A DNA stretch of 64,000 nucleotides, taken from positions 21,762,001 to 21,826,000 of the forward strand of contig JBNRSN020000017.1 of assembly GCA_051313645.2 (NCBI GenBank), given 5' to 3'. The stretch is from Centroscyllium fabricii. Lineage: Eukaryota. The notes beneath the pieces were generated by a model. The model searched no databases. It was given only the letters and a program-made list of their open reading frames with translations, and was not told the origin of the DNA. The position numbers were made by a program, and so were the translations under genes. This document shows positions 11,116 through 58,419 of the stretch, one piece after another; position 1 is the first letter of the stretch, and each line of letters begins with the position of its first letter.

Positions 11116-11314
11116 CATGTGTATCTCCTGATTCACACAGAAGCTGAGAAGCCATGTCAAAACAAAGTCGGATTCTAGCAATTATCTGTAAGGTTTCTAT
11201 TGAAGGCTGATTGCGCTTATATTTAATAAACATCTGAAGGAAATCTCTCTCTTGGGCCAGATAAGCATTTTTTTCATGCACCGTGAAGAACTGGCATTTT
11301 TCATATATAGAATC
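11116..11314 (-). CDS. RNF213: RNF213 exon 20 of 24 (DSIYEK...LQIIARIRLCFDMA...)
   Basis: cag/gtaatg, 199 nt; ARIRLC.D.A motif. Confidence 0.9.
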
Positions 11315-11492
11315 CTGGAAAGAGGGAAAAATAAAAACTGGTTAATAAGAATGGTTTCTGAAACTTAGATTTTTTTGATTAATCATTTTATACTGACTTA
11401 ATCAAAGGGCTTCAACACTAGTGGCATTTCTCTAAACTGTGTCCCCTTTAATTATTTTGTTTTACTGAAAAAGAACTGAAGAACAAAAGAAA

Positions 11493-12275: not shown

Positions 12276-12488
12276 ACTTAATACAGTAAATAATCTTTCC
12301 ATTCCATAGGCACCAACCTTGGATCACAGCACCATACAAGACTGCAACTGTCACCATTATATGAGAAGTTAAAGAACTAGGAGCTCATTTTGGAAGGTGT
12401 ACAGAATATTTAGGCTATGAAAGATCTGACTTGTGATATAAGCTGCTTACAGCTTTAACTTAATACCAATGGGTTTAAACAAACATAC

Positions 12489-12603
12489 CTCCAAACAGCT
12501 CAAAAATAGTGCGTAGAGTTCAGCCTGATCATCCCGATCAAGAATGCTTGTTTTTTGAACTTCAGAAAGATACTTTTGTAAGTAATCCTTAATGTCATCA
12601 AAA
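12489..12603 (-). CDS. RNF213: RNF213 exon 19 of 24 (FDDIKDYLQKYL...ELYALFLSCLE)
   Basis: cag/gtatgt, 115 nt. Confidence 0.92.
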
Positions 12604-13612
12604 CTGGAAGGAAAACATTTACTTCAGTTAATTTAAACACTAAAAAAGGTAGAAGCTATCGAGTTAAAATGCAGAGGAAATTTAAATCATTACCCTAGTG
12701 GGTGAGGTTGAAAATTATGACGCTAATATTGAAAATAAAATGTCAGAAGAAGCCATTGCTGAACTCTGTGGGAGTGACCATATCTTGATAAAAACCCACA
12801 CAATGACATGCCTACACGTCCGATCTGATACAACTCAAATTAAAAATTCGCAAAAATTTAAATAAAATAAAAGTTAGCTAGCCATCTAGGATGCTACCAT
12901 TGAAATAAATACATTCAAGTTATGATGATTCTAAAAACAAAACAAAAAAGATCAACAATCACATCCAAGTTATCTTAGATTTTCCCTGGAATGACAAACT
13001 TGCAGGAAATCTGTTCGAGGGAGTAAGCAAGGCCATGAAATTTGGTACACGTCCATGAAACTGTGACATAGAAATGAAACTGTCAAAGGACAAGAGAGAG
13101 ATGGACAATAACTGAACAAGCTCGCTGACCCTTCCACTCTACTTTTGATAAACTAAAGATCATGCATTGATGTTTTCTGTGTTAAGAAAACCTTATTTAA
13201 ATGGAAAAGATTTACCAGCTCTGATGTAGAATGCTCAAAGCAGAATCTCTACATTCATTAATCGGATGCTGACTACTACAAGAATTAAAAGTTTGCAACG
13301 ATACCAATCAAGTCATGACATTAGAGTTGTGTTGAGGGATATTTTAATCCATCCACTAATACCTACCATACCCATTTAAAACTGTTCACTAAAGAATGTG
13401 ATGGGGCAATTTCTTAAAGCCTCTATTCACTGCCCACAGTTCTCACACAAACTCCACTTGGCATCATTTGGGACTAGGAGCTGCAGTGAGAATAATGGCA
13501 GTGCTGAATTAATGTGCAATGCGATTCCTCTTTCATAATTGTTTCTAGTTTTTACAACACAAAACAAATAAGCAAAATGCTACAAGCTCATTAGCCTATC
13601 AATAGATTGTAC

Positions 13613-23174: not shown

Positions 23175-23512
23175 CTGAAATAGAAGTACAAACACTTGAA
23201 TGGGTAAAGATACAAGATTTTCCAAATAAATGCAGTACGTATCTATTAAAGTTTAGTGAGGAGACTGATAGCATCCTCAATCCTCAAACAATACAAGTTA
23301 ATTATTTGTAAATATTATTCTTGCTTATGAGTTTGCCTCAAAATGGCTCTTTACAGGAACTTTGTTTCTAAATGCTTCAAATTCAAAAGAGTAGTTCTTC
23401 TATTTGGAGAAAATAATAAAGTCTTGATGTCAGACTGGATAAAGAAATCTTAATGAAATAGTAGCACTTAGACAGTATTCTCATTTAACAGACAGGAAAT
23501 AATTTGCTATTA

Positions 23513-24307
23513 CAGGTTGAGCACCGTTAATCCGGCACGGGCGGGACCAGGCCCGTGCCGGGAAATGGAAAAAACCGGGAGAATGAGTTTGGACACTGCG
23601 CATGCGCACCAGGCAAAATGGCCGCGCGCATGCGCAGATCGTCCAATATTGGCCGCCGCGAAGTTTTTTGATGGGCTCAGGCTTTTGTGGCGTTCCGTTT
23701 AGGTTTTAGGGCTGTCGGGCAGCAGTGAAAGGCCGGTCTTGCGGGGGGAGGCAGGAGGGTGGCGCGGGTCGGGGGGGGGGAGAAAAGGAGGGTGGCGCGG
23801 GGGCAATTTATCCAATCCCGTTTTGCTTTCAATTGTAAGAGGTCACACAGCGCCAGGCTGTGGTCCAACGGTTTTAGTTGGGGTCACGGGCTTTCGGAGC
23901 GCCACTTCCCCGTCAGGTGATGGGGGAGCGGCGCTCCGAAGGCCCGTGATTTCGAGTGGGACTTTTGGACTACAGCCTGGTGCTGTGTGGCTTCTTACAA
24001 TTGTCCATCCCAGTCCAACACCAGCACCTCCACATCATGGCTTCAATTAGTTATCGATAAAATAACCGGCGGCCGTATTGAATTATCTGCGCATGCGCTA
24101 ACCTTCCGGCGACGCATGCGCAGATCATTCAAAACACCCGCAGCTGTTTTGAATGATCTGCGCATGCGCTCGGCGCATGCGCAGATCATTCGTTGAAGCC
24201 ACGATGGCGGCTGCCATTTTGCGCATGCGCAGTGCAGTCTGGACAATTTGTGCCGGCAGACTGAAGCTGCCGGCTATTCGGTTACCGGATTAACGGTGCT
24301 CAACCTG
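23513..24307. mobile_element. pogo/Tigger-like MITE
   Basis: 23-bp TIR CAGGTTGAGCACCGTTAATCCGG at both ends, TA flanks. Confidence 0.88.
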
Positions 24308-24427
24308 TACCTGTACTGTATAATTTCGTGATTTCTCAGGGTTGTCCTCCACTTAACTTTGTGATAGTAAGAGGCAACTGCAATTGCCAGTTGAATATAG
24401 CACTGTTTAAACAGGCATTTTTATCCC

Positions 24428-24653
24428 TGTGGTAAACCACTGTTGTATATAGTTGCCTTTTGCCTGTGTGTATACATGCCCGGGCATGCCTGAAGCTGGC
24501 TCCGCCCCTAGCCTACCTGATAAAGGCCAAGCTCCGGGAGCCTGGCCCAGTACAAGGAGTTGCCGGTCTGTCTAAGGATGTCCAAGGTTCTTAGTGAATA
24601 AAAGCCTCAGTTGTATTCTCAACCTCGCCTCGAGTACAATTGATCGCGCATCA
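24428..24653 (+). mobile_element. solo LTR
   Basis: TG...CA ends, AATAAA at about 24597, perfect 5-bp TSD ATCCC. Confidence 0.8.
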
Positions 24654-24968
24654 ATCCCCCCAAGTAGTACTACACAGCTGTTTGGTATTTCAGCCTGAAA
24701 ACTTACCCATTTGAGTATGTAATGCAGTTTGGCGATATTTAAGGATATTAAAATTACTTGGTGCACTAGTATTCTGCTGGTGAATTATACTGGAAATACT
24801 ACCAAAGTAAATAACTCTGAAAGGTTTGGCATTGAAATGCAGTTAATCTCTCGAGGTGGCTGCTGGGCTGGCAGCTCTGTAATGGAGCCCTTCTCTTATG
24901 GAGCTTTATCTTTCGCCATCCAATGCCATCTTTACTCTTTCACCCTCAAGTTAATCTCTTCCACTGCT

Positions 24969-25370
24969 TAGAAACATAGAAGATTGGAGCAGGAGTAGGC
25001 CATTCGGCCCTTCGAGCCTGCTCCGCCATTCAATGAGATCATGGCTGATCATCCAAACCCAGTACCCTGTCCCTGCCTTGTCCCCACATCCCTCGATCCC
25101 TATCGAGCCTGCACCAACACATATCCCACCCTATCCCCGTAACCCCACATATTCAATCACCCTAACACTAAGGGTCAATTTATCATGGCCAATCAACCTA
25201 ACCCGCACATCTTTGGACTGTGGGAGGAAACCGGAGCACCCGGAGGAAACCCACGCAGACACGGGGAGAATGTGCAAACTCCACACAGATAGTCACCCGA
25301 GGCCGGATTTGAACCCGGGTCTCTAGTGCTGTGAGGCAACAGTGCTAACCACTATGCCACCGTGCCGCCC
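24969..25370 (-). mobile_element. HE1/V-SINE, full length, double-tail type
   Basis: Reverse complement of the 7619 family. Confidence 0.9.
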
Positions 25371-25371
25371 C

Positions 25372-25772
25372 ACTCGAAGGAAGTGCCGTGCTCAGAGAGC
25401 AGAGGCAGCACACCACGGGGGTAGGGGGCAGCAGAGGGGGAAGGTGCTGGCAGTCGGCCAGCAACAAAAATGGCCGCCAGGCAGCCTGCCCTTTAAGCAG
25501 AGCTCCACCGCTGCAAGTACCGCAGGCTGAAGCGGTCACGGGCAGCACCCGCCGGAAACTCAGCGGGTGCGACTTAATTTCGCTCCCCCAGGCGCGAGAG
25601 GGTCGCTGTGCGCTATGATGACGTGATCCCCGGCGGCGAACAGCTGCGGGGCGCTACCGGCTACATCAGCGCCCCACTCAATATGGTGGGAGGCTCCACG
25701 CCAGGCTTGCGCCCAATTAGCAGCCCTCTTAGGGCGCTAACGGCAGGCGCAAGCCACCGAATTTCTCCTCCT
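25372..25772. mobile_element. GC-rich TIR-element fragment
   Basis: GCGCTA-rich like 2706..3673; ends in CGAATTTCTCC. Confidence 0.4.
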
Positions 25773-26228
25773 TAGGCTCTAATAGAGGGTGCATTTTCGC
25801 TCAAAGTTCAAGTTCCAAGTTTAAAGCCACTTCTGCAGAGCCCCTTGTCCACCCCAGACCTTGCTTGTTCTTTATTTCACTGCACTTATTAACCATTAAC
25901 CACTGGAACTCAACTCAAATTTAATTCTGGGAACTCCTACAATCATCTGCCATCAGGATTAGGCTGCCGACTGGATTACACAGTAAGACACAGCTGTTGT
26001 GACTATGTTCTGATATGCAGTGGTTTCACGTTTTAAGGTAACTTTTCCTAGCTGACAGCCCATCCTCCAGTTGCTGCTGTTACCTGCTGAGCAACTTACT
26101 GTACTGCTGGCATCTCAACTGTATTTTAGTGCTGAATGGGCCCTGGACAGAAATCCACTTTTCCCTGGGCTGAAGTCCATTTCTCCGCTGTTTCTGGACC
26201 TCAAAGGTGACCGCCAACATCACCAGAT

Positions 26229-27260
26229 GCCGGGCGATGTTCCGGAGGTGGAAATAGGCGGTCTTAGTGATGGCGTGGATATGTGGTCGGAAGCTCATCT
26301 CGGGGTCAAATATGACACCAAGGTTGCAAACAGTCTGGTTCAGCCTCCGACAATTGCCAGGGAGAAGTCGGTAGCTAGGGAACGGAGTTTGTGGCAGGGA
26401 CCAAAAGGAGCTCGTGACATTCTTGGTCACAAAAATTCAGATCATTAATACAGCTGCCTCCGTCACATCCCTCACTTCCTCTTGCCCACCAAGCCAAACT
26501 TCCTCCAAGGATCCCCCTGCCATGAATCTGCATCCATTTGTATTTTCTCTTCCATCTGCCCTCATGCCTAATTCAAGCTCATCTTGTCCATGAGTCCCAT
26601 TTCCTGCTCTATCGACCCTATTGGCACTAAACTGCTGACTATCCAACCTCCCTTCCTGGCTCCTATTCTAGCTGGCATGGTAAACGTTACTCTCTCCTCA
26701 GATACTATCCTCCTCACTCACCCTCCTCCAACTCCTCTTTTCCGTTGTCCAGCTGAATGGGACTGCCTTCGCCTGGCTCCACTCTCATCTAGCCAGTTAT
26801 AGGCAGAAAACCTCCTGCAATGGCTTCTCCAGCTGTCCCAACACTTTTAACTATGAAGTCTCCAAAGATCTATATCCTTGGCCTCTCCTATTTCTTGCTG
26901 CATGCTGCCCCTCGGCAACACCATCCACATGTACACGGACGACACTCCGCTCCACCTCACCACCACCTCTCTTGACCCCCTCCACTGTCTCTACTAGGTC
27001 AGCCTGCTTGTTCGACATCAAGTCCTCGATTAGCTGCAATTTCCTCCAATTAAGCATTGGGAAGACTAACAGCATTGTCTTCATCCCTGCCACAATCTCC
27101 GTTCCCTCACCACTGATTCCTTCCTACTTTCTGGCCACTGTCTCAGGCTGAACCAGATGGCTCGCAACCGCGGCGTCCTATTGGACCGAGCTGAGTCATC
27201 TCTTTCCACATCCATATCATTCATCCATCTCCGCCCTGTCTCAACTCACCTGCTGTTTTT
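26229..27260. mobile_element. degenerate L2-type LINE fragments (26229-26406 minus; about 26440-27260 plus, continuing at about 29100-29360)
   Basis: NLGVIFDPEMSFRPHIHAITKTAYFHLRNIAR and HMYTDDT remnants; similar to 48950..50990 and 62720..63510. Confidence 0.7.
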
Positions 27261-27403
27261 AAAAAAAAAATGTTTATGGGATGTGGGCTTCACTGGCAAA
27301 GCCAGCATTTATTGCCCATCCCTAATTGCCCTCGAGTGGTGGTGAGCCACCTTCTTGAACCACTGCAGTCCATGTGGTGAAATTACTGAAAGGTATGATT
27401 CTA

Positions 27404-27886
27404 TGCACAGAGCATTCAAAATGGCCGCTGCAAAATTTTTAATGCTCTGCGCATGGAAGGTAATTTTCGGCCCTAGGGTCGGGTGGAACTCACAGGACGC
27501 ACTCGATTCTGCTGCTCCGGGTGGATCAGGGAGCGGCCTGCACGGCTCCAGCGGGCCTGAGGTACAATGCGCGGCTCAAGCCCGGCTCACGTGACGCCAC
27601 CGCACGCCAGCTTCGGAACGCGGTGACGTCAGCACCCTCCGGCAGCGATGGGGAGCCGGGCGCCGAGTTTTGGCTGTACCGCGTCCTTGCGAAGGCAGCA
27701 ACAGCTCATTTTCTGGGCCTGGAAATCACCATCGGCATCGGGGTGGTCACTAAGCCGGGGTCCAGTGAGTATCTGTTCGGTGAAAGGGAAGCCCAGCCCC
27801 GACGGTGGCCATTTTGAATTGTCTGCGCATGCACCGGGCAGTCGGGAAAATCTGTGCCGAATGACTGAAGCTGCCGGTTTTTCGGG
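27404..27886. repeat. inverted copy of 30444..30933
   Basis: Near-identical reverse complement with a 7-nt indel and a few substitutions. Confidence 0.95.
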
Positions 27887-28602
27887 CGGGGCTGAAACCC
27901 AGAAGTCCCGTCTCCAGCATGTCTCCATTGAGAAAATCCAGCCCACTGAGAGAATCCACAATAACATGGAAATCAAAAAACTGCTGCAAGACTTTGTGCA
28001 TTATTGCAGACATTTGTCTCACCCACTCATGAAGTGCAGAGGGGAGTATGTGTGGCCCAGTTCCAAATACGTTTGAAATTGGGCTGCGCAGTGCATTCTG
28101 GGGCACCAGTTTGTGGTTCTTTTGGAGTAGTGAGATGCAGGTTCAATTCCTTTACTGATCTGCATCGCTAATGAAGACACTAAGCAAAAATCAGGCACCT
28201 GCTAATGAGGAGAGGGAAAGCTACAGAGTTATCTCTAGGACCGTTCACACTAAGATTTGGATCCCATACAGATTACCCAAAGGGTCTTGGGAGTTGTAAG
28301 GCTTTTTATTAGAGAGCTACAGTTCAAGCATAATCAGATGCTGCATTCGATTGAACTAGATATAGTAGACATACAACCCGTGACAGATGAGAACAATCTA
28401 CGGCCCTGCGATGGAATGAACAGAACGAGATGACCGGACAGATGTCGGATGGACGGACGTCGATGAATGTTGACGGATGTCTCTGTCTGCAACAACGGTC
28501 ACTTCTGCTGGGTCTCTACTTGACCTGCCTGAGGTGTCGGCTGCCAGCCGACACCTCGGGTAGAGCCTGATAAACCTAGCATTTCATCCACTCCGCGGAA
28601 GC
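27884..28602. repeat. inverted copy of 38478..39200
   Basis: Near-identical reverse complement with one GGAC unit indel and a few substitutions. Confidence 0.95.
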
Positions 28603-29484
28603 TTGACTAGTCTGTGGGACAGTTCTCCGAATTTTGGCACAAGTCCCCAGATGTTGGTGAGGAGCACTTTGCAGGGTCGACTGGACTGGGTGTGCCTGTA
28701 GCCGGTGCCGAGGTCAATGACGGGTGGTCTGTTCGGTTTCATTCTTATTATGTTTCATAGCAGTTAGTTACAACTGAGTGTTTTGCTAGGCCATTTCAGA
28801 GGGCAGTTAAGAGTCAACTACATTGCTGTGAGTCTGGAGTCACATATAGGCCAGACCGGGTAAGGACGGCAGGTTTCCTTCCCTAAAAAGAACATTAGTG
28901 AACCAGATGGGTTTTTATGACAATCCGATAGTTTCATGGTCACCATTACTGATACTAGCTTTTTATTCCAGATTTATTTTTTGAACTGAATTTAAATTCA
29001 CCAGCTGCCATGGTGGGATTTCAATCTCTGGATCATTAGTCCAGGCCTCTGGATTACTAGTCCAGTGACATTACCACTAAGCTACCATTCCCTCATCCAT
29101 GCTTTTTTTGGCTCCTGACGTGATTATTCCAATGCTTTCCTGTCCGTACTCTGATTTTCCACACAACATAAACTTCAGCTTATCCAAAACTGCTGCCCAT
29201 ATGTTAACTTGCAACAAGTCTCGCTCATCCATCGTCTGTGCTCGATGACCTACATTGGCTCCCAGCCCACCGGCGCCTCAAATGTGAAGTTCTCATCCTC
29301 ATGTTCAAATCCCTCCATGGCTTCACCTCTCCGCATTTCTAACCTCCCGACTTACAACCCTTCGACATGTGGTGATCACAAAGCTTAAAACTACTTTGCG
29401 ATATTTCCTACTTGTTTTAAATAACTATGCATCCTTCTCTATAAATCTTCAAACCGCACTTTAATTTAAAAAAGGAATTCTTAC

Positions 29485-29663
29485 TGGACATGATTTACAA
29501 TAGCAGATTTGATTCCTTGGCACTGCAGAAATTCTTCGGTGCAGATCAGCTCAATGGGCATTTGCAGACTGTTCACCTTCTGCAGCCAGATCTGACTTGA
29601 TACTTCAGTGTGTGCAGATTCCAACATTTCAACACAGGCAGCCGCTGCATAAACATCGATGAC
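29485..29663 (-). CDS. RNF213: RNF213 exon 13 of 24 (VIDVYAAAACVEML...WLQKV..LQMPIELIC...)
   Basis: cag/gtaaga, 179 nt. Confidence 0.92.
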
Positions 29664-30418: not shown

Positions 30419-31022
30419 CAGGTTGAAGTTCGTTAATCCAGCACCCGAAAAACCGGCAGCTTCAGTCATTCGGCACAGATTTTCCCGACTGCCCGGCGCA
30501 TGCGCAGACAATTCAAAATGGCCACCGTCGGGGCTGGGCTTCCCTTTCACCGAACAGATACTCACTGGATCCCGGCTTAGTGACCACCCCGATGCCGATG
30601 GTGATTTCCAGGCCCAGAAAATGAGCTGTTGCTGCCTTCGCAAGGATGCGGTACAGCCAAAACTCGGCGCCCGGCTCCCCATCGCTGCCGGAGGCTGCTG
30701 CGTGCTGACGTCACCGCGTTCCGAAGCTGGCGTGCGGTGGCGTCACGTGAGCCGGGCTTGAGCCGCGCATTGGACCTCAGGCCCGCTGGAGCAGTGCAGG
30801 CCGCTCCCTGATCCACCCGGAGCAGCAGAATCGAGTGCGTCCTGTGAGTTCCACCCGACCCTAGGGCCGCAAATTACCTTCCATGCGCAGAGCATTAAAA
30901 ATTTTGCAGCGGCCATTTTGAATGCTCTGTGCACGTGCCGCCGAAGCTTCAATCATTCGGCGTTTTCAATAATTCGGCAGGGTGCTGGTCCCAACCCTGC
31001 CGGATTAACGAACTTCAACCTG
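30419..31022. mobile_element. pogo/Tigger-like MITE
   Basis: TIR CAGGTTGAAGTTCGTTAATCC at both ends, TA flanks. Confidence 0.88.
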
Positions 31023-31245: not shown

Positions 31246-31458
31246 CATCTCTCTGTTTTCAACTTTCTGAATTTCATCTCTCTTCCCCTGTAGTAGCCTC
31301 AGAACTGAAGGATGCACTGCAACAATTCGTGAAAAATTCTGCAGACGATTTTTGAAGTGTTGATATGCAAAGTGCACCCAAAGCAAAGACACATCATCTC
31401 CGATGCTATGTTTTATTTTCAGCTCATTTACACAGGACATCAGTCCTCCTCGAAGGAA
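31246..31458 (-). CDS. RNF213: RNF213 exon 12 of 24 (FLRGGLMSC...WVHFAYQHFKNRLQNFSRI...EM)
   Basis: tag/gtgcga, 213 nt; WVH.AY..F..RLQNFSRI motif. Confidence 0.92.
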
Positions 31459-31574
31459 CTAAATAAAACATGTAAAAAATAAGCACAAGTTAGCAAATAA
31501 CACAACATATTTAATAAATGTTTCCTCAAACACCTCAGGCTTAGCTGTACAGAACATGAATTAATTCGCTGCTA

Positions 31575-31850
31575 AACCTGTGACCTCTACCACCTAGAAG
31601 AACAAGGGCAGCAGGCGCAAAGGAACACCGCCACCTCCAAATTACACACCATCCTGATGTGGAAATATATCGCCGTTCCTTTATCACTACTGGGTCAAAA
31701 TCCTGGAACTCCCTCCCTAATAGCACTGCGGGAGTGCCTTCACCACACGGACTGCAGCAGTTCAAGAAGGTAGCTCACCACCACCTTCTCAAGGGCAACT
31801 CGGGATGGGCAATAAATGCTGGCCTTACCAGCGACGCCCGCATCCTGTAA
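31575..31850 (+). mobile_element. LINE 3'-end fragment
   Basis: GSKSWNSLPNSTAGVPSPHGLQQFKKVAHHHLLKGN then GGGCAATAAATGCTGGCC; reverse copy at 50215-50510. Confidence 0.75.
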
Positions 31851-32430
31851 ATGAACTTAAAAAAATACTGGGGTGAATTTGAACCTCGTTGCCTCGGTTT
31901 TATAATGAGGGCCAATTTTGGGGACTAACTTCCTATGCCCAAAGTGCAACTGAAAGACATTTAACTCGATACTGGTGTCTGGTGATTTTTCAGACACCCC
32001 GACGGCTGCCTAAAACAGGAGTTAGGCCATTTACATATGTAAAATGGGGCCAAACACCGGTTTTCAGCCTGCTCTGGGAAACTGGACTGCGATGAGCAGA
32101 GCAGAAGCTGGGCCTACCTAAGCAGCAGCCGCCAACAAAAGCTTAAGGCAAGCAGCCGGATAGTCATCGTCTAAAAATGGGCAAGCTGCCTGTGGAGACG
32201 TGACAAGCCCCAGCAGCTTGCTCAAATAATATTAATGAGGCCCAAGGCCCAGTTTTGGGTTGGCCTAGGACCTCCCAGTTGGGGTGTGCGTTCTGTGCGC
32301 GGTGCCCATTTCAAGCCTGCAAATGGGTCTAAAGGAAATGTGCTTATTTTTTAAATATTAACTACAATGTCCTACATTTTATTACGATACATTATGCAGC
32401 TGTAATATATTTTATCTGAATGGTTGGGGT

Positions 32431-32505
32431 AGACTTTCACTTTACTGCCTGTGCAGACTTTCACTTTACTGCCTGTGCAGACTTTCACTTTACTGCCTGT
32501 GCAGA
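32431..32505. repeat. 3 x 24-bp tandem repeat (AGACTTTCACTTTACTGCCTGTGC) at the end of a short TIR-like element
   Basis: Three exact units; flanking ends GGGGTAGACTTT / AAGATCTACCTC. Confidence 0.85.
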
Positions 32506-32684
32506 GTACAAAGAAGAAATTTGAGCGGGCTCCATTATGAGGGGGGGGGGGGGGGATTCTTCCTGCTCGATTTTCTTCTGTGTCTGCCCAGGTGATAAAG
32601 ATCTACCTCATTATGAATAGTTTATGTGAAACTACTTTCCCCTGTGAAGAGCTCGAGGCCATCACCTGCACTGGAATACTTTAC

Positions 32685-32842
32685 CTCAAATTCAGACTCG
32701 GATGAAATGCTCATGGTCATCAACAGGAAGTCATTCAAGTACCTAAAGAAAAATTGCTGTCTCCATTCTTCACTCACAGTTGAAAGGTACTTTCCAAATC
32801 CAGTTTTATTAAATATTTCATTCAACTTTTTCTCAGTTTGTC
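32685..32842 (-). CDS. RNF213: RNF213 exon 11 of 24 (QTEKKLNEIFNKTGFG...YLNDFLLMTM...EFE)
   Basis: cag/gtaaag, 158 nt, phase consistent. Confidence 0.9.
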
Positions 32843-33049
32843 CTGTTTATGCGTTTGGGAAATAGAACAAGTAATAATTAATCCAATGGAATTATCTCAA
32901 GACTCCCACCTATTCAGTTCGGCTGTCTGATAAAATTTACTATTCACAATAGCTGCACTATACTGTGGCCAGAGAGAACAGTACTAAACTGAAAGAGCAG
33001 ATGACTGGTGGGTACGGTATCTTGGGGGGGACTTTGCCGGAAGGGCGGG

Positions 33050-33450
33050 AACCTGAAGGCCCTGCAGCGGGTAGTCAAAACTGCCAACGAATTACCGGCA
33101 CCCGGCTACCGTCAATGGAAAGCATATACCTCAAACGCTGCCTACGGAGGTCTCTGAACATTATTAAAGACCCCACACACCCCAGCCACAGTCTGTTCGC
33201 CCCCCTGCCCTCCGGTGTACGAGACAGATCAATTCGCACCCGCACAACTAGATTCAAGAACATCTTCTTCCCCAGAGCTGTCAGCCTCCTGAACTCTAAC
33301 AAAAAACTCCAGTACCTGAACACCTGAAAATGTACTTTACTGTATGCAATTGTATGTAAATTATTTGCACTACTCTCGGGAGCGGTGAGTCTTCCGTCTT
33401 GTTGTATTGTACTGGTACTCTGCAATGACAACAAAACTTGAATTGAATTG
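33050..33450 (+). mobile_element. Rex1/Babar-like LINE 3' fragment
   Basis: IIKDPTHPSHSLFAPLPSG..RSIRTRTTRFKNIFFPRAVSLLN and a (TTGAA)n tail. Confidence 0.8.
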
Positions 33451-34275
33451 GTCTGGGCGGCTTCCTGTCCTGCTCGCCCGCCCAAACAGCTGGGAAGGCC
33501 ACACAATTTAAATTTAATTGGGTTGTTAAATCCCCACCGGCGGCAGCGGGTGGTAATTGAGTCAATCAAGTCGGGCTGCATCGGGGCTGTGAGGAGTTTG
33601 ATTGACAGTTCCAGCACTGGTTGTTGACAGTTCCCATGGAAACACTCCACTGTGACATCACAGTCGAGTGGAACCAATGGAAAAGGTCAAGTGCTGGTGA
33701 CGGACAGGTGGGCTCAGAATCCTTGACCGCTCGCACCGGCTGTCAGGAAATGTGCAGAGCTGAGATTTCTCAGTTTCTGCTCACAGCTGCTGCAGCCAGC
33801 ACGGAGTTACTTACTCCTCTAAGGTGCTGGAGGCATGCCAAGCATTTGGCAGCATGTCCTTCACACCTTGAAGGAGAAAGTAATAACCAGCACTGTGCTC
33901 CCGCTGGGTTTCACCCAGCAGGGTTTCACCCAGCGGGGTTAGGGTGGGAAACAGGGCAAAATGGCTGAGGGCCCTTAAAATGGAATTAAAGATGCCAATT
34001 AAGGGCCCTTAACGAGGTGACAACGCATCCCCGCCGGCGGGAAGGTCTCGGGGCGGGGGGAAATGAGAAAGCTGCGGGGATGTCGGGACCTGCCGGTTCC
34101 GCTATTTTTCCGGCCAGGCCGCCGAAAACCCCGCCTCACGGGGACATGAAATTTCCCCCCCATGGTTTCCAATGGCCCATTCCATTAGCTCAGCCCTGAT
34201 GACATTTTGTACTGAACAAAAATAGCTTACACCCCTATTTCCAATGTAACACCGTGCTGTTGCACTGTGCAAGTA

Positions 34276-35643
34276 CAGGTTGAAGTTCGTTAATCCGGCT
34301 CCCGAAAAACCGGCAATAATTTCCCCGACTGCCCTGCGCAAAATGGCTACCGCGATCGATGCTTCGATGAATGATCTGCACATGCGCCGCCGAACGCATG
34401 CGCAGATCATTCACAATGGCCGAGCCGATCCCGAGCCGAGCCTGGCCGCTGCGAGCTTCCCATGAGCCTGGCCGCTGCGAGCTTCCCATGAGCCTGGCCG
34501 CTGCGAGCTTCCCATGAGCCTGGCCGCTGCGAGCTTCCCATCAGCCTGGCCGCTGCGAGCTTCCCATCAGCCTGGCCGCTGCGAGCTTCCCATCAGCCTG
34601 GCCGCTGCGAGCTTCCCATCAGCCTGGCCGCTGCGAGCTTCCCATCAGCCTGGCCGCTGCGAGCTTCCCATCAGCCTGGCCGCTGCGAGCTTCCCATCAG
34701 CCTGGCCGCTGCGAGCTTCCCATCAGCCTGGCCGCTGCGAGCTTCCCATCAGCCTGGCCGCTGCGAGCTTCCCATCAGCCTGGCCGCTGCGAGCTTCCCA
34801 TCAGCCTGGCCGCTGCGAGCTTCCCATGAGCCTGGCCGCTGCGAGCTTCCCATGAGCCTGGCCGCTGCGAGCTTCCCATGAGCCTGGCCGCTGCGAGCTT
34901 CCCATGAGCCTGGCCGCTGCGAGCTTCCCATGAGCCTGGCCGCTGCGAGCTTCCCATGAGCCTGGCCGCTGCGAGCTTCCCATGAGCCTGGCCGCTGCGA
35001 GCTTCCCATGAGCCTGGCCGCTGCGAGCTTCCCATGAGCCTGGCCGCTGCGAGCTTCCCATGAGCCTGGCCGCTGCGAGCTTCCCATGAGCCTGGCCGCT
35101 GCGAGCTTCCCCGAGCCTGGCCGCTGCGAGCTTCCCCGAGCCTGGCCGCTGCGAGCTTCCCCGAGCCTGGCCGCTGCGAGCTTCCCCGAGCCTGGCCGCT
35201 GCGAGCTTCCCCGAGCCTGGCCGCTGCGAGCTTCCCCGAGCCTGGCCGCTGCAAGCTTCCCCGAGCCTGGCCGCTGCGAGCTTCCCCGAGCCTGGCCGCT
35301 GCGAGCTTCCCCGAGCCTGGCCGCTGCGAGCCTCCATGAGCCTGGCCGCTGCGAGCTTCCCCGAGCCTGGCCGCTGCGAGCTTCCCCGAGTCTGGCCGCT
35401 GCGAGCTTCCCCGAGCCTGGCCGCTGCGAGCTTCCCCGAGCCTGGCCGCTGCGAGCCTCCCCGAGCCGGCTCTCCCTGAATGATCAGCGCATGCGCAGAC
35501 CACTCAAAATGGCCACCGGCCTTTCGCGGCGGCCATTTTAAATGGTCTGCGCATGCACTCGCCGAAACTGCAATCATTCGGGATTTTCACTTGTCCGGTA
35601 CGGGCCTGGTCCCGCCCGTGCCGGATTAACGAACTTCAACCTG
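34276..35643. mobile_element. pogo/Tigger-like MITE carrying a minisatellite
   Basis: Perfect 23-bp TIR CAGGTTGAAGTTCGTTAATCCGG, TA flanks. Confidence 0.9.
34438..35462. repeat. GC-rich minisatellite, 40 units of 25-26 bp
   Basis: Unit (G/C)AGCCTGGCCGCTGCGAGCTTCCC(AT/C) in blocks of 4+11+10+15. Confidence 0.97.
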
Positions 35644-36679
35644 TATTTATGAAAACTGCAATACAAGGGGCACAAAGTTGAATTTTAAATGACTGCAAAC
35701 TCCTACTTTACGGTCACACTTCTATCAAGCATCACCATACTGAGCAGCAATTTGTTTGAGTGCCATTCTCACAAACATACGGTAAAATATCTCCACCTGC
35801 TTTTTAAAAACCAAGCACTTTTATGGACTCTTGCAATGGCTCGGTGAGTTTATTCAGCAAGTAGCTGAGCTTTACGAGCTACATGGGCCCCGCCCCGTGT
35901 TTGAGCACACATCTCAACTGCTCTCAGGGCACTACAATTTGCCTCATTGAACCTAGGTTATGGAGAGCAGAATCAGCTACATTTCCCACTTTGATTGTTA
36001 TCCAGTGACCTCTTGAGTGTGAGGATATTAAGGGCATCACCACACTGAAATCTGATCAGGTTCAGACTGTGCAGTTATCATGTAAAATCCACAGAAGTGT
36101 GATATGCACCTGAATAGCACAGTGTAACTAAAATTAACAGAGTACATTTATCAATATTAAGGCTTGAGTTAGGAAATAAATATGACTAAAGTAGTTTGTT
36201 GTTTGGTTGCTTTTTACCGCTGCGATTCCAAAGCACTGCCCCCTGAAGTGGTCGGAGGATGTGTGTTTCAGCATCTTGTTTCTGATGTTGTTCTCAAACT
36301 GTGACAACTTTGGGAAAATGGAAGAGTCCACAGGGAGGATGGAGAAATCATTGTTAATAAAGACCGGCTAACCTCATGCTCTGCCTGCAAACTGGTTATA
36401 CAGTGCCACTGGTGCAGGTCTGGGACTAAGTCCCTGCTCTTTCCTGGCAGTTGAAGAAGGAAGTATGTAGAAAGGGGAGATTTAAACAATGTTTTCATAT
36501 AAAATCCAGATTCTCCTGTTATCATGTGATACTTCATTCACATTTCCAGTCATAAGATCTGCAGTACTTTTTCCTGAGACCCCTACCAATTGCGTATATT
36601 TAGTGATATCACAGCATTGGTGTAGATAATTAATTTTGGTTGACTCTCCACATGAATGCAGAGAATGGTTATCAAATAC

Positions 36680-36810
36680 CTTCCATGTACTGGGCCTGAA
36701 TCCACAACTCATCTAGATAGTCTTTTATTCTCCAACTGAAAGGCAGCACATTGCCAATTTCCAGTATGTCCATTTTCATGTAGTTGTGGACAACAATTTC
36801 AGATTGTAAA
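36680..36810 (-). CDS. RNF213: RNF213 exon 10 of 24 (LQSEIVVHNYM...PFSWRIKDYLDELWIQAQYME)
   Basis: cag/gtattt, 131 nt; PFSW.IKDYL.ELW.QAQY motif. Confidence 0.92.
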
Positions 36811-37077
36811 CTGTCAAAAGAAAAGCAAATGTTTACCTCAGAGATTATACAGAAAATGCAGACAATGTTAATGCATGGTTTAACTATTCACATGGCAGGT
36901 AAAAAGATAGGTCAGGGAAGTTTTGGGGGGGGGGGGGGAGGCACAGACGGAAGCGGTCCAAAAAAAGCATGGTTTTAAACGAGGAAGCGGTCCAAAAAAA
37001 AGCGTTATAATAACGAGGCACAGACCCTTCCACGGCCCGGTAAAAATGTCCCGCGGCCCGGTACCGGTCCGCTGCAA

Positions 37078-37473
37078 TAAGATTATGGCTGATCTTCAAC
37101 CTCAACTCCACTTTCCCACTCGATCTCCATATCCCTCGATTCCCCTAGAGACCAAAAATCTATCTGTCTCAGCCTTGAATATACTCAATGACTCAGCAAC
37201 CACAGCCTTTTGGGGGTAGAGAATTCGAAAGATTCACAACCCTGAGTGAAGAAGTTTCGTCCCATCTCGGTCTTAAATGGCCGACTCCTTGTCCTGAGAC
37301 TATGCCACCTAGTTCTAGCCTCTCCAGCCAGGGGAAACAACCTCTCAGCATCTACCCTGTCAATCCCCCACAGAATCTTATATGTTTCAATAAGATCACC
37401 TCTGAACTAGAGAGTGTATAGGCCCAATTTACTCAATCTCTCCTCATAGGACAACCCTCTCACCCCAGGAATC
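37078..37473 (-). mobile_element. CR1 3'-end fragment
   Basis: Reverse complement resembles the ORF2 C-terminus and 3' UTR of the other CR1 copies. Confidence 0.8.
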
Positions 37474-37883
37474 ATGTTACGTCTTATACCTTCTATGGTA
37501 CATGGTGTTCTCCTGTTAGATACAGCTGAAATCACTGGGCAAGAGAGAAAATATATTTTTCAAAACATACTGAAGGATAGAATTCTAGTTGTTCCCCATT
37601 CACCATCTCTCTGGCACAGGCTCAGAAACAGGCCAACACCCGTGGCCAAGAACGGGGGGGGGGGCAATCTGCCCCCAAGTCTCAGCCAAATCAAATCTGT
37701 GCCAGGCACCAGATGGTGTTGTAAAAAGCATGCAAGAAACAAGTTGCAAGTTATAAGGCGCGTAATGATTCTGCAGGAAATAGATCTGCTAACCCACTGA
37801 CCTGTTACCCAGAAAGAATTCCAATCACATCAGATAAGAACAGAGAGAGGCCTTAGGTCAACACAAGCTCAAGCAGGCCTCCC

Positions 37884-38212
37884 AAACATAGAACTGGTTG
37901 ATCAGCCAAACCCAGTACTCCGCCCCTGCCCTCTCCCCATATCCCTCGATCCCTATCGAGCCTGCATCGACACATATCCCACCCTATCCCCGTAACCCCA
38001 CATATTCAATCCTCCGAACACTAAGGGTCAATTTATCCTGGCCAATCAACCTAACCCGCACATCTTTGGACTGTGGGAGGAAACCGGAGCACCCGGTGGA
38101 AACCCACGCAGACACGGGGAGAATGTGCAAACTCCACAGATAGTACCCGAGGCTGGATTTGAACCCGGGTCTCCAGTGCTGTGAGACAACAGTGCTAACC
38201 ACTGTGCCGCCC
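37884..38212 (-). mobile_element. HE1/V-SINE, double-tail type with tail deletion
   Basis: Matches the 53940 copy. Confidence 0.88.
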
Positions 38213-39139
38213 ACACAGACATAGCAAGTCTGATTAGGGAGACGAGGAACCAGTCAGTCGAATAAGCAAAACACTCAATCATAATAAACATTTAACACAA
38301 AAAAGGTAAGAAATAACTGAATTCTAGCTCAGTGAATAAGATGGTCAGGAAATACCTTTGCCCTGGTAATAATATTCATGAAGTGAATGAAAAATGAAAC
38401 ATCTGTGATCCCAACCCACCAAAATGAGATATACAAATAGGCCAGAGAGAGGGGGAAGCTAGCGGTTAAGAGGAAGGGCTTCCGCGGAGTGGATGAAATG
38501 CTAGGTTTATCAGGCTCTACCCGAGGTGTTGGCTGGCAGCCGACACCTCAGGCAGGTCAAGTAGAGACCCAGCAGAAGTGACCGTTGTTGCAGACGGAGA
38601 CATCCGTCAACATTCACCGACGTCCGTCCGTCCATCCGACATCTGTCCGGTCATCTCGTTCTGTTCATTCCATCGCAGGGCCGTAGATTGTTCTCATCTG
38701 TCACGGGTTGTATGTCTACTATATCTAGTTCAATCGAATGCAGCATCTGATTATGCTTGAACTGTAGCTCTCTAATAAAAAGCCTTACAACTCCCAAGAC
38801 CCTTTGGGTAATCTGTATGGGATCCAAATCTTAGTGTGAACGGTCCTAGAGATAACTCTGTAGCTTTCCCTCTCCTCATTAGCAGGTGCCTGATTTTTGC
38901 TTAGTGTCTTCATTAGCGATGCAGATCAGTAAAGGAATTGAACCTGCATCTCACTACTCCAAAAGAACCACAAACTGGTGCCCCAGAATGCACTGCGCAG
39001 CCCAATTTCAAACGTATTTGGAACTGGGCCACACATACTCCCCTCTGCACTTCATGAGTAGGTGAGACAAACGTCTGCAATAATGCACAAAGTCTTGCAG
39101 CAGTTTTTTGATTTCCATGTTATTGTGGATTCTCTCAGT

Positions 39140-39961
39140 GGGCTGGATTTTCTCAATGGAGACATGCGGGAGACGGGACTTCTGGGTTTCAGCCCCGCCC
39201 CCAGCGAGGTCTGACCAACCCACACTCTTTTCCCTCGAATGGTCTCGTTAAGCTCGACCTGCTGGCTTACTAGCCAATTAAGGGAAAGCCGGTAACAGAT
39301 AATGTCAGTGTATGACACTTCATCTGTTGAAAGAATTTTGACAGATGAATCGTCAGCGTTTGACAGCTTTGCGATGCCGGCAAACACTGAATCTCTGTTC
39401 TAAGGTGAGCCCTTGCACACAGGCTCACCAAGTCCTCTCTCCTCTGCAGAAAGCAGATGGCTGCTGCATCTGAGAATGAGCAGCCATTCTGTCATCTCTG
39501 CTGTTGAGATGAGGCACCTCCAGATCCTCAAAGTTTGAAGTCTGCAGGAAGAAGCAAAGGTAAGGAAGCTTTTTCAAACACTTTACACTCACCTCTCATA
39601 CTTACCTGTCCACACTTGCACCCATCACTCACCTCTACAGCTGACATTTCGACCTCTCACCCCCGCAGACCCACTGCTCGCCTCGCAGACCCCGGTGAGG
39701 TTCGCAGCCGTCGGGAAGCCCACAATTGCAGGCGTAAAATGGGGAAAAGCCTCAAAACTGCCTGTTACCTACCTGTTATCAGGCAGTTGATTGGCTCGAA
39801 TCCCCTTCCCGCCTCAAGGAGACGGGTCCCTGCGCAATTCAGGGATCTGCTTACTGGGAAGATGGCACGGAGGCGAGTTGGGAGCGGGGTTGGTGCCCCA
39901 CTCCCAGTTTCTGCCATTTTCCCGGCAGTTCCGCCTCCCCAGGGCTGGGAAAAGTCCCCCC
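39140..39961. mobile_element. Harbinger-like non-autonomous element
   Basis: Ends GGGCTGGATTTT / AAAAGTCCCCCC, AGT on both sides; homologous to 18099..18823. Confidence 0.7.
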
Positions 39962-50995: not shown

Positions 50996-51027
50996 GTTCA
51001 TCTGTGCAGTTATCTGTTATTACATAT

Positions 51028-54337: not shown

Positions 54338-54561
54338 ATGTGATGAACTCACCTGTAGACAAAGATCAAACTTCAATCATTAAAAGGATTCCATCTTTTA
54401 AGCCTACCTGAGGAAACAACCTACAGTCGATCTCAAAAGTGATTATAATGGGATTTCTCTATAAATCTGTATTATAGCTAGACTAGGAAACTGTAACCCA
54501 ATAACTGAAGTATAAGCTACTGTTACAGCATAGAAAATTACATTTATTAAAAGTAGATTAC

Positions 54562-57500
54562 CTCAGTGAAAACTGCCCAATATTGAACTTCGGATTTGGT
54601 GTGAGAATGGATGAAATCCGCAAGGGAATCATGATGCTGGTCTGCAAAGTATTTCTGCATTATCGCGTCAGCGGAACATGCAGGAAATTGAGAACTAGTT
54701 AAACGGACCACAGAATCTGGGGTGGCACAATTCAACAGGACCCATTGTGCTTCTTTGAGAATTTCCTCCCAAGAACCGAGAGTCTGCTTCAACCTTTGTG
54801 TTATTTGTAAAACAACGGATGCACAAGTGTCAGAGTGATAGCCAACAAACACATCAGATGGATTGTATCTCTGCTGCCTTCCATATTTGTGTCCAACTGC
54901 TGTGAAAGTCTGCACCCACCGCTTCAAATCTTCGACAATATCCCTTTGACCTCTATCAAGGACTGTGTTAATATCGAGATAATGCTTCTCAAGCCTATTG
55001 ATAAGTGGAATGGGAAACTCTTTGTAGACCACCTCCTTCTCCTCTATAACTATCAGCCTGAAATTTGGATGGACTCTGCATTTCACTCTATGAGTCCCCA
55101 AACCTAAATCCACATACTTCTGTCCTCCAAGGTACACGTAGTATTGATTCAACGCATCATACAGGCTTTCGTAAAGATTCTGCAGATTTAAGAGAACCAC
55201 CATTTGTCCAGTTTCCATGCAAATCTTCACACGGTTGATGTTTCTGCAAATCTGAGTATATTCTTGATCTTTGGGAAAACTGGACCCAAAGATTATCTCA
55301 GGCTGATGATTGGAGAAAAAGATCTGCTGAAGTATTTGAAGAGCTGCGTAGTTTTTGGTTAGAATGAGAAGGTACCGGCATTCGCTGTCATGAGAATCAG
55401 CATATATGTTGTGCTTGATCAGTTCCAATGTGTCGATGTTATCATGGGGGGCATTCTGAAGCACAGACTTGAAAACGTCCATAACATCAACATCATCACT
55501 TCCACTGAAGTTACGCAACACAACTTGCACCAACTGCTCTGGGGTTGGTTCTTTTTTGGAGACTTTTGAAAGTGAAAAGACCATTTTTATTAAACTGTAA
55601 TAATCGCGCAGCCCGAAAAACTCTCTATTTTGCTTTTTGCAAATCTCTAGATAAGCTTCTGCAATGCTCACAAACAAACCGAGCACTTTTTTCTGTATCA
55701 CAGGATCAGATGAACAGATCCCTTTGGCACTTTCAATCAGTTCTTTTTTGTCAGGATCCCCTCGTGACACAAAAATTCCTCTATTCATTTTGGCAGGATC
55801 AAGAGCCCAGTTGGATATTCCAATGAAACCAACTTTTTTGTGTTTAAGGGGGACATCATCAATACATCCATCTTCCAAGAGTGGATGAAGAGTTTTCAGT
55901 GGCATTTTCGGAGAATCTTCAGCGAGGCCAATTTCATCCAAGACAACGACTGAAACATACTCATCAAGGTTCTTCCCTTCTTGGAAGCGGGCACACTGCT
56001 TAAATGTATTAATGATTCCTTCAGGTGTGGAATGAGGACTGCACTGAAATGACACTAAATGGATCTGTTTCAGGTCTTTATACAGTTCAGAATGAGCTGC
56101 TTGTCCCTGCATGGCATCTGCTACAATCGTTTTTGCAAGTGATTTTGAACTACCAGGCTTTCCAACCAAGAACAGTGGGATTTTAAGCTCAATGCAAATG
56201 ACCATCATGAAAACGTTTTCTTTCAACGCGGAATTCCTTGCAATTGTTTCTCGCAGCGGTACACCACTCAATAAAAGATCTTGGAGGAGCACGAGTTGCT
56301 CCAAGAATTTGTGCGGATTATTGTATGGTGCAGGGAGATAACGGCAGATGACTTTCCGATATGCACTCTTCTTTTCTAAACATGCATGATAACACACTCC
56401 AAGTGCCAACACAAAGGCCCAGATGACGTCATTGATCAATGCACTGAGTGCATTCTTATTGACACCACCTCGTAAGGATTGTTTCAATTTGTTTAACAGC
56501 ATCTGGCGACGGCTGTAAAACCAAACAAACACCTTCATGCACCTCTCCACATCTCGAAGACTGACAAAACTGCACTCATCTTGCTGATGTCTCATGAAAT
56601 GCTGTGAAGCTGACAAAATATCCACTATGCATGTAATATTGGTAGAGGGATCCGAAATGGACTGAGTCAGCCTTTGGACAATTTGCTGGATGTACATCTT
56701 CTCAGTGATGTCATTAAGTTGCCCAAAATCCCACACTAGTGGTATCATGCTTGGAGGTAGAGCTTGTACACGATAAACGAGTTGCCTCAAAGGAATAGAT
56801 CCCAGTTTATCTTCTGTTTCATCTGCTCGGACTCGGTAGCCGAGCCCAGCTGACTCTAAACGCTTGATCATCTCATCTGTATGTTTTCTGTAAGGATTGC
56901 AGGCTGCTATTATCTGCAAACCTGTATTGGAGGTTAAAGGCCCCCCTTCAATCATTTGGTCGCAAAGAACTTCCTTAATGCAGCTAACAGCTTCGGTTGT
57001 ATTGGCTTCATCGAAAAAGAGAATGGTGTCAAAATCGAAAGTCTGCTTGTTGTGCATTGCAAGAGCTTCAGCATGTTTAATTTTGGAATAGATCATGTCT
57101 GCAGTTGTTCCTCCGTGAACTTTCACTAGTTTCATGTTCTCTGTGTCAGTGCCAGCCTTCCGCAGCTCACACAAGAACTTGATCAGCCTGGTCTTGCCAC
57201 AGCCAGTCTCCCCCATGATGATCACAGGAATGCCACACCTAAAACGCATGTGAATCGCAAGAATCTTTAAAATATTATCCGTGGTGAGCTCGTAAGTTTC
57301 ATCGGGGTCCATTGGCCACTGAATGCCCAATACTGTGCAAAGCCGCTCAATCTTTTCACTCCGTGGAAGCTGGTCAAAATTGGTGTTGAATGGGACTCTC
57401 TGCAACAGTAAGCCTTGGTACAACTGACGGGTCATTATATTTGGTTTAATAATCTGGCCATTTGTTGGGTTTACAGCATCAATCCCGCCATGATCATTTT

Positions 57501-58140
57501 CTCGGAGGTGGAAACCAATGAAGGTCATAGATATATGATCATCATTAAAGAAAATGTAAGGATGTGGTTCAGATTCCCACCTTTTTCTTATAAGAAATGG
57601 TGCAAGATCTTCTTCAGTAACACCGTCTAAGTTTGTAGTTTGCCTTCCCGGGCTCTGGTCTGAGATACTCAGAGAAGGGGTTGCAAAATCTCTCGCCATC
57701 AAAATCATGAAATTAACAACGAAATTTTTGAATCCTTGCAGAGTATCTTTAATCATTTCAAAGTCACAAAATACTGAGGTTTCACAGTCCTTCAACTGCA
57801 GGTTAAGAAACCAGGCAAAATTCCGCAGCTCCGACCAAGAAGGGTCCATCACCCCACAATAGATCAGAAACAGCTGCAGGCACTCGACATGGCTGCCTTC
57901 AACAGTTCCCGCCAGGTAACTAAAGGTGTCCAGGTTCTCTTGGTTTTTGAATCTTCTGAGATACTGATATGGTCTTTGAAATGCTTCATTCTGAAATTCT
58001 TCATTATCCACGAGAGGATCAATGTCATTCCAGGAAAGATTCTCAGATTTTCTTACTTCCTGCTCCAGTACCTCTTTTGGTGGTCTGCAGTATACTTTTG
58101 GGAAAACATCCAGAAAGCTGTGCTTTGGCATTTGGGCAAC
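54562..58140 (-). CDS. RNF213: RNF213 giant AAA+ exon (window exon 1 of 24; 3579 nt, 1193 codons)
   Basis: 1194-aa ORF with Walker A/B pairs GETGCGKT..LFFDEANT and GKPGSSKS..VVLDEIG plus RNF213-typical motifs (PYQYLRRF, GISNWALDPAKMNRG, LYDALNQYY). Acceptor cag at 58143-58141, donor gtaa after FTE; phase 0/0. Confidence 0.97.
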
Positions 58141-58419
58141 CTGAAATTTAAAAACAAATAACTAAATCAGAACATTATTTTGAATAGTGTAAATACTCCA
58201 CTATCCATTCCATCTGCTCATTTCTTTGGCTAACACAATTTCCAACTTTTTACAGAAAGATGCCCAAGAATAAGCAATATTATACAATTATATTTTCATG
58301 AGGAGATAAATTTGGATATATACTTACAAGAACCTATTTTCAAAGCAGGTATTCAAACATCTCTTTTTTTAATTAAAACAACGTTCTATACTATGGACAT
58401 CACCAAGATTAAAGAATAA

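What the first reader, a model, noticed from the sequence alone, without database searches (positions are those of the whole stretch)
27381..28602. 1.2-kb composite insertion stitched from inverted copies of two nearby loci
Seen: 27404-27886 is the reverse complement of 30444-30933, and 27884-28602 is the reverse complement of 38478-39200. The pieces join through a shared GGG (27884-86), and about 23 nt of unassigned filler precedes them. Donor 1 is the interior of a MITE that still has both TIRs. Donor 2 runs from flanking DNA into only the first ~60 bp of an intact TIR element. The composite has no TIRs, TSD or poly-A of its own, so it is the derived copy. It sits at a junction inside a LINE remnant. 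Inference: this is a fossil of serial microhomology template switching (FoSTeS/MMBIR or Pol-theta-type repair) using templates about 3 kb and 11 kb away, not a transposition.
Basis: partly seen in the sequence, partly recalled or inferred. Interest (0 to 1): 0.7.

Follow-up and report, generated by a model that had tools for sequence, protein, structure and literature searches.

The report
Two-donor repair patch in RNF213 intron
A 1.2-kb stretch in an intron of the immune gene RNF213 consists of back-to-front copies of two nearby pieces of the same gene and is missing from a neighbouring duplicate of that gene; it is most likely an ordinary DNA-repair scar of a known kind, with no effect shown.

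Summary
Real, and a known kind of event. Both inverted copies are there (97.3% and 98.6%), and the middle junction occurs once in the 7.2-Gb genome. The window lies in a 346-kb tandem duplication of RNF213 whose second unit keeps the empty site. That shows: insert 27406-28600 (1,195 nt), 16 target bases lost, no target-site duplication, and 2-3 nt microhomology at all three junctions (TG, GGG, GC; chance about 0.3-0.4%). Piece 1 shares six derived characters with the local MITE copy only, so the template was local. One short-read contig matches the right junction exactly, one base short of the tool's bridging rule; the other two junctions were not seen. This is a chimeric repair-mediated duplication (Pace 2009), longer than that paper's 619-bp maximum for proximal cases. 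Serial switching versus two-ended copying, and the polymerase, cannot be told. The copies form inverted repeats around one exon (frameshifting skip) or four exons (in-frame skip); no RNA could be tested. The scan noted such scars before in other genomes, sharks included.

The parts
27406..28600 (+). Inserted composite, 1,195 nt, replacing 16 nt of target
   Evidence: Empty site in second unit, G000:C678:22141513/22141530
27404..27886 (+). Piece 1: inverted copy of donor 1 (MITE interior)
   Evidence: six derived characters shared with the local MITE only
27884..28602 (+). Piece 2: inverted copy of donor 2
27404..27405 (+). Left junction, 2-nt microhomology TG (target / donor 1)
27884..27886 (+). 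Middle junction, 3-nt microhomology GGG (donor 1 / donor 2); unique in the genome
28601..28602 (+). Right junction, 2-nt microhomology GC (donor 2 / target)
   Evidence: contig 28573-28639 in run X1
27381..27405 (-).
   Evidence: endonuclease and RT Pfam hits beside family copies L117 and L113
28601..29092 (-). Right flank: rest of the interrupted LINE fragment
30419..31022 (.). Donor-1 MITE, 25-nt TIRs, TA on both sides; copied part 30444-30933 ends at the inner edge of the left TIR
38478..39200 (.). Donor 2: starts inside a dispersed repeat (about 38230-38833), crosses low-copy DNA, ends 61 nt inside the element at 39140-39961
29485..29663 (-). RNF213 exon (179 nt) bracketed by piece 1 and donor 1
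31246..36810 (-). Three further RNF213 exons (36810-36680, 32842-32685, 31458-31246) bracketed, with the 179-nt exon, by piece 2 and donor 2
54550..58161 (-). Large RNF213 exon (human residues 2157-3360) that names the host gene

Best explanation
The 1,195-nt insert is two inverted copies of nearby intron DNA joined to each other and to the target by 2-3 nt microhomologies, replacing 16 target bases, and it was likely written in one germline break-repair event in which a broken 3' end copied local templates. Shown: insert limits, target loss, three microhomologies, no target-site duplication, intact donors, and the local origin of piece 1. Inferred path (about 55:45 over two-ended copying): the left end primed on TG in the MITE about 2.3 kb away and copied back towards the break. 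It stopped at the inner edge of the 25-nt TIR, possibly because the TIRs pair on a single-stranded template, switched on GGG to the site 10.6 kb away, copied 719 nt, and rejoined the right end on GC. It happened in one unit of a 346-kb RNF213 tandem duplication, likely after the two units diverged (1.0% to the donors against 2.0% between units). It is predicted to be neutral.
For: Empty site in the second unit, and the lost 16 nt match the LINE family at 14-16 of 16 in 6 of 7 loci (11 of 16 in the seventh), so the empty state is ancestral. All three junctions have at least 2 nt microhomology: 0.41% of 200,000 random triples did, 0.29% with a sum of 7 or more. All four donor ends fall inside repeats that continue in other copies. 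The junction 30-mer occurs once in 7.2 Gb. Piece 1 shares a 16-nt deletion, substitutions at 27516, 27519, 27537 and 27563, and a 1-nt shift at 27688 with the local MITE, against the second-unit copy and 8 family copies; one family copy has its own overlapping deletion at the first site. Run X1 has a 67-nt contig identical to 28573-28639, and X1 and X2 have contigs with the composite's 4-nt gap and 28463A. The class, chimeric cases included, is described in PMC2671141.
Against: Left and middle junctions are not among the listed contig pieces (32 of 334 listed). The right-junction contig has 30 nt on the donor side where the tool asks for 31, depth 6, in 1 of 4 runs; all four runs show contigs going from 28602 into donor flank, and the runs may include the assembled animal. 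Piece 2 does not group with the local donor: both donors share 28463G (family A in 11 of 11) and 28550A against the composite. That needs later conversion between the units or a template on another chromatid. The TIR-edge stop has about 2.9% chance but was noticed after the fact, and other predicted stems in the MITE would have had to be read through.
Confidence: 0.85

Rival explanations
1. Same repair class, two-ended: the left end copied donor 1, the right end copied donor 2 moving away from the break, and the two new strands annealed on GGG (the SDSA model of Pace 2009). This is a variant within the best explanation and is counted inside its confidence.
For: Predicts the same three microhomologies; it is the model given for 20 chimeric cases among 1,136. 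The different genealogies of the two pieces would fit two ends using different chromatids.
Against: Nothing in the sequence excludes it. Both ends must invade the same side in inverted orientation and anneal on 3 nt.
Confidence: 0.38
2. Two separate insertions at the same site, one landing at the edge of the other.
For: Piece 1 groups with the local donor, while piece 2 keeps ancestral states against both donors.
Against: A clean 3-nt donor-to-donor microhomology with no target remnant. Piece 2 has no substitution shown to be its own, so it does not look older. Only 1 of 112 examined gaps in the duplication is such a local copy, so two at one base is unlikely.
Confidence: 0.05
3. Assembly chimera, or the 'second copy' is the other haplotype placed in tandem.
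For: No raw long reads were available. Contigs of X1-X4 carry second-unit alleles at several flank sites in all four runs, so copy numbers per haplotype are not settled.
Against: The composite differs from its donors by 12 substitutions and 2 gaps, which a misjoin would not create. X1 matches the right junction. The tandem junction at C678:22,039,767 is a sharp 1-nt-microhomology join of unrelated sequence, with no N in 903 kb. A haplotype reading of the second unit would only make the insert a polymorphism.
Confidence: 0.04
4. RNA-templated patch (class 2 TSIP type): RNF213 pre-mRNA served as template, primed from the right end.
For: Both donors lie in the RNF213 transcript, and priming from the right end would copy the transcript's strand. 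Class 2 TSIPs show microdeletion and microhomology without target-site duplication.
Against: The pieces are joined against transcript order and not at splice sites; no poly(A). TSIP donors are described as distant, whereas these lie within 11 kb.
Confidence: 0.04
5. A mobile element or transduction in its own right.
For: Most of the insert is repeat-derived.
Against: Junction found once; full length found once among 40 scored of 6,925 candidates; target deletion instead of duplication; no ends of its own.
Confidence: 0.01

Closest known systems
Repair-mediated duplications (RDs), chimeric type; Pace, Sen, Batzer, Feschotte 2009, PMC2671141 (parts 1-5 of 8 of the text read; supplement searched for two words only)
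   Same: Insert interrupts a transposable element; donors intact; at least one donor within 5 kb; microhomology 2-9 nt plus target deletion; no poly(A); two donors joined by 3 nt in their figured example.
   Different: 1,195 nt in all and a 719-nt piece, above their 619-bp maximum for proximal cases. The second donor lies 7.5 kb from the first, where theirs lay within 3.5 kb (5 cases) or on another chromosome (15). Deletion 16 nt against 1-15. No cartilaginous fish among their ten listed species.
MMBIR templated insertions (MMB-TI); Osia et al. 2021, PMC8421209 (passages seen)
   Same: Multi-part germline inserts with microhomology at each switch and return to the original template.
   Different: Human data; the yeast templates cited lie within 100 bp, here 2 and 10 kb. 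Pathway genetics cannot be tested here.
SD-MMEJ / Pol theta-mediated end joining; review PMC7407515 (passages seen)
   Same: 1-4 nt pairing primes synthesis; deletions with microhomology in germlines.
   Different: Described there as limited synthesis from repeats near the break and small inserts; here 0.5 and 0.7 kb copied from kilobases away.
Class 2 templated sequence insertion polymorphisms; PMC5110952 (passages seen)
   Same: No target-site duplication, no poly(A), microdeletion and microhomology.
   Different: Donors distant and thought to pass through RNA; here local and in non-transcript order.

Membership tests
Repair-mediated duplication (Pace 2009) | Insert of 50 bp or more interrupting a TE, with an empty pre-insertion site | tested here: met
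Repair-mediated duplication (Pace 2009) | Identifiable intact donor, at least one within 5 kb, not tandem | tested here: met
   donor 1 at 1.9-2.3 kb; six shared derived characters
Repair-mediated duplication (Pace 2009) | Microhomology, deletion or filler at breakpoints; no poly(A) tail | tested here: met
   TG, GGG, GC; 16-nt loss; no filler
Repair-mediated duplication (Pace 2009) | Insert found at only one other place (their pipeline filter, which also left out segmental duplications) | tested here: inconclusive
   Junction unique, but donors have a second-unit copy and piece 1 is a high-copy MITE; the local donor is resolved for piece 1, not for piece 2
Repair-mediated duplication (Pace 2009) | Present in the germline, not an assembly product | tested here: inconclusive
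   Right junction in a contig of 1 of 4 runs, 30 nt on the short side; other junctions not among listed pieces
MMBIR / FoSTeS | Two or more template switches at microhomology with return to the original template | tested here: met
MMBIR / FoSTeS | One nascent strand, replication-coupled, Rad51-independent (recalled definition) | not testable with these tools
   Sequence alone does not separate it from two-ended SDSA
Pol theta end joining (TMEJ / SD-MMEJ) | Short templated insert copied from right beside the break | tested here: not met
   483 and 719 nt from about 2 and 10 kb; description
Pol theta end joining (TMEJ / SD-MMEJ) | Dependence on POLQ | not testable with these tools
   Needs genetics
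Transposon or retroposed copy | Own TIRs or poly(A), target-site duplication, several copies | tested here: not met

The most novel reading that the evidence does not exclude
The repair scar is a splicing switch that tells two tandem RNF213 copies apart. In unit 1 only, it creates 483-nt and 719-nt near-perfect, mutually crossing inverted repeats in the pre-mRNA. One loops out a 179-nt exon (frameshift if skipped), the other four exons of 681 nt (in frame, 227 residues), so unit 1 would make skipped or circular RNF213 RNA that unit 2 does not.
Probability: 0.08. Interest if true: 0.65.

Novelty: new member of a known kind. Interest (0 to 1): 0.3.

Why it matters
As it stands it is an unusually complete specimen of a known mutational process: empty site, both donors and all three junctions are readable in one assembly, and it is larger than the proximal cases in the defining paper. 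It adds no new mechanism. It would matter more if the new inverted repeats change splicing of this RNF213 copy, because the tandem twin without the insert is a built-in control. It would also matter if breakpoints of such inserts proved to cluster at MITE TIR edges genome-wide.

Tried and rejected
Filler search: no match of 11 nt or more for 27381-27403 elsewhere in the window; then shown to be flank. Second-unit donor as template for piece 1: rejected. For piece 2 undecided: 5 substitutions to the second-unit donor, 6 to the local one. Precise loss of the insert from the second unit: rejected, the 16 nt are family sequence. No RNA holder listed, so no evidence on splicing either way. The first read-laying over 26600-29400 was swamped by repeat contigs (32 of 186,693 pieces listed). 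Contig depth was inconsistent between runs of one sample and was not used for copy number. The sliding divergence was contaminated by off-register SINE hits and dropped; block values were used. My note of a 45-nt unexplained stretch at the unit junction was wrong: one search shows a clean join. Folds at the donor-2 ends and at the target showed no convincing stem boundary. No Pfam hit for frames over the composite (97 of 155 frames of 85 aa or more given). Literature: 'repair-mediated duplication' + 'shark' 0 papers; 'templated insertion' + 'shark' + 'genome' 4 listings, none on shark genomes by title; 'RNF213' + 'duplication' + 'cartilaginous fish' 3 listings, none on this by title; TIR or stem-loop breakpoints with MMBIR 2 listings, not read. 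The library lacks most subscription papers. Table S1 of PMC2671141 was not read row by row and may hold longer chimeric cases among distant duplications.

Full report
Observation. Self-BLAST of the window gives 27404-27886 as the reverse complement of 30444-30933 (97.3%) and 27884-28602 as that of 38478-39200 (98.6%). Pairwise alignment lists 6 substitutions and a 7-nt gap for piece 1, and 6 substitutions and a 4-nt gap for piece 2. In the own genome (7.2 Gb, window at C678:21,762,001-21,826,000) the full composite was found once among 40 scored of 6,925 candidates. The 30-mer over the middle junction occurs exactly once. The genome looks shark-like; that label is from recalled SINE sequence and from earlier notes of the scan, not from a test.

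The empty site. One search also showed a third copy of piece 2 about 353 kb away. It belongs to a second copy of the whole region. Fetching 903 kb showed a head-to-tail duplication, units about 21,693,416-22,039,767 and 22,039,767-22,374,104, with 5,032 substitutions in 246,483 aligned bases (2.04%) and no N. The units meet at a sharp join of unrelated sequence with 1 nt of microhomology, which favours a real duplication over a stacked haplotype (inference). The second unit lacks the insert: it runs from the equivalent of 27405 through 16 nt to the equivalent of 28601. 38 of 40 scored matches to the empty site are repeat copies that run unbroken across it from about window 27386. The 16 nt match them at 14-16 of 16 in 6 of 7 loci and 11 of 16 in the seventh. 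The repeat is a LINE: an endonuclease hit and an RT hit lie downstream of the match on the same strand in 2 of 7 family loci (27 of 62 frames given); one further RT hit in L114 faces the other way.

Junctions. Left TG, middle GGG, right GC, each bounded by mismatches, and no target-site duplication. In 200,000 random triples drawn from the same sequences, 0.41% had at least 2 nt at all three and 0.29% also summed to 7 or more. All four donor ends cut through repeats. Both donor-1 ends lie inside a MITE with 25-nt TIRs and TA flanks. 38478 lies inside a dispersed repeat of about 80% identity that continues across it. 39200 lies 61 nt inside an element whose family starts at about 39139. The GGG (30444-30446) abuts the inner edge of the left TIR (30443). 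If the template was single-stranded the 25-bp stem could have stopped synthesis there; the chance is about 2.9%, noticed after the fact, and other predicted stems lie inside the copied part. I treat this as a hint only.

Which template. Piece 1 shares six derived characters with the local MITE against the second-unit copy and 8 family copies, so the template was the local copy. Piece 2 is different. The local donor has 4 private substitutions (two shown derived), the second-unit donor 3. At 28463 the composite keeps the family base (11 of 11) while both donors share another; at 28550 the family is mixed (5 G, 3 A, 2 other of 10) and both donors have A. The block holding these sites is among the least diverged between units (8 of 1,007 against 1,090 of 56,034 overall), as later gene conversion would give (inference). 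A template on another chromatid is not excluded. Composite-to-donor distance is 12 of 1,202 (1.0%), half the unit distance.

Reads. Only assembled contigs of four runs from at most two samples of one study were laid, possibly the assembled animal itself. X1 and X2 hold contigs over 28364/5-28496 identical to the composite, 4-nt gap and 28463A included. All four runs also show the donor continuation at 28602. The left and middle junctions are not among the 32 of 334 pieces listed. At several flank sites all four runs carry the second-unit allele and at 27126-27130 the window allele, so the number of haplotype copies is unsettled. Support is real but partial.

Host gene. The frame 54550-58161 is RNF213. 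tblastn with four unnamed homologues (two printed) places the gene from about residue 1 to 5172 in both units. Six exons from 40949 to 23054 have AG/GT ends and join in one frame with no stop. The insert is in the intron 23175-29484, donor 1 one exon upstream, donor 2 four exons upstream; no exon found was copied. The two new inverted pairs are the two strongest of 33 inverted pairs within 15 kb in the unit-1 gene span. In unit 2 the best upstream partner of this intron is 131 nt at 81%, though unit 2 has its own 1,088-nt pair elsewhere. Skipping the single exon (179 nt) shifts the frame; skipping all four (681 nt) keeps it. Inverted repeats across introns can drive back-splicing (PMC11263572, passages seen). 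No RNA could be laid, so this stays a hypothesis.

Base rate. Of 122 gap entries between the units, 112 were examined (50-6,000 nt, inside the duplication; 10 left out). Three were at least 80% covered by local matches of 95% or more within 25 kb: this composite, a 60-nt SINE piece and a 458-nt element with other copies nearby. So this is the one clear local templated insert in about 680 kb of the two units: uncommon locally, not extraordinary.

Comparison. Pace et al. 2009 (PMC2671141) found 824 proximal repair-mediated duplications in human, up to 619 bp, with 2-9 nt microhomology and 1-15 nt deletions. Twenty of 1,136 inserts were chimeras of two donors, five with the second donor within 3.5 kb of the first. 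This case meets the sequence features and is larger. It also fits germline multi-part MMB-TIs (PMC8421209, passages). It does not fit the short, break-adjacent inserts described for Pol theta (PMC7407515, passages), which lowers membership there without excluding that enzyme at the joins. Earlier notes of the scan report the same class in other genomes, among them a three-donor case and two exon-bracketing cases in cartilaginous fishes; I did not check them. I had reached the RD reading and the exon-bracketing idea before that look-up.

Verdict. A real, most likely single-event, two-donor repair-mediated duplication in an RNF213 intron, unusually well documented by the empty twin. New member of a known kind; interest 0.3. 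The boldest reading left open is a splicing effect on one of two tandem RNF213 copies (probability 0.08).

Noticed in passing
G000:C678:21,693,416-22,374,104 (window lies in unit 1): 346-kb head-to-tail duplication holding RNF213 twice. The large exon is open in both: 11 synonymous and 15 nonsynonymous codon changes, one 9-nt in-frame indel, pN/pS 0.37. Other exons were not checked for breaks.
   Followed up: partly
G000:C678:35,586,813-35,588,127: A third, older RNF213-like piece at 71-76% DNA identity to the large exon.
   Followed up: no
window 36938-38903, 49823-51027, 9420-13161: Blocks of low divergence between the units (0.6-1.0% against 1.95% overall), possibly gene-conversion tracts.
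   Followed up: partly
G000:C678:22,153,553-22,154,147: 595-nt element with long terminal inverted repeats and a TTA-type target duplication, inserted in the second-unit copy of donor 2 only.
   Followed up: no
G000:C678:22,145,300-22,146,120: The second-unit copy of the donor-1 MITE carries an internal duplication of about 120 nt.
   Followed up: no
window 34436-35467: GC-rich minisatellite of about 1 kb (25-26 nt unit by self-match offsets), much shorter in the second unit.
   Followed up: no
G000:C678:22,417,032-22,465,000 and beyond: Satellite array of at least 48 kb begins 43 kb after the end of unit 2.
   Followed up: no
G000:C678:22,049,611-22,061,132 and 22,225,177-22,238,591: Pairs of near-identical direct repeats (1,021 nt at 99.9%; 1,831 nt at 99.3%) 10-12 kb apart, in unit 2 only; possibly ends of young retroelements.
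   Followed up: no
G000:C678:22,204,504-22,207,325: 1,088-nt inverted pair at 92.6% within one RNF213 intron of unit 2.
   Followed up: no
window 38523-38549 and its copy 28531-28557: 27-nt near-perfect palindrome inside the dispersed repeat of donor 2.
   Followed up: no
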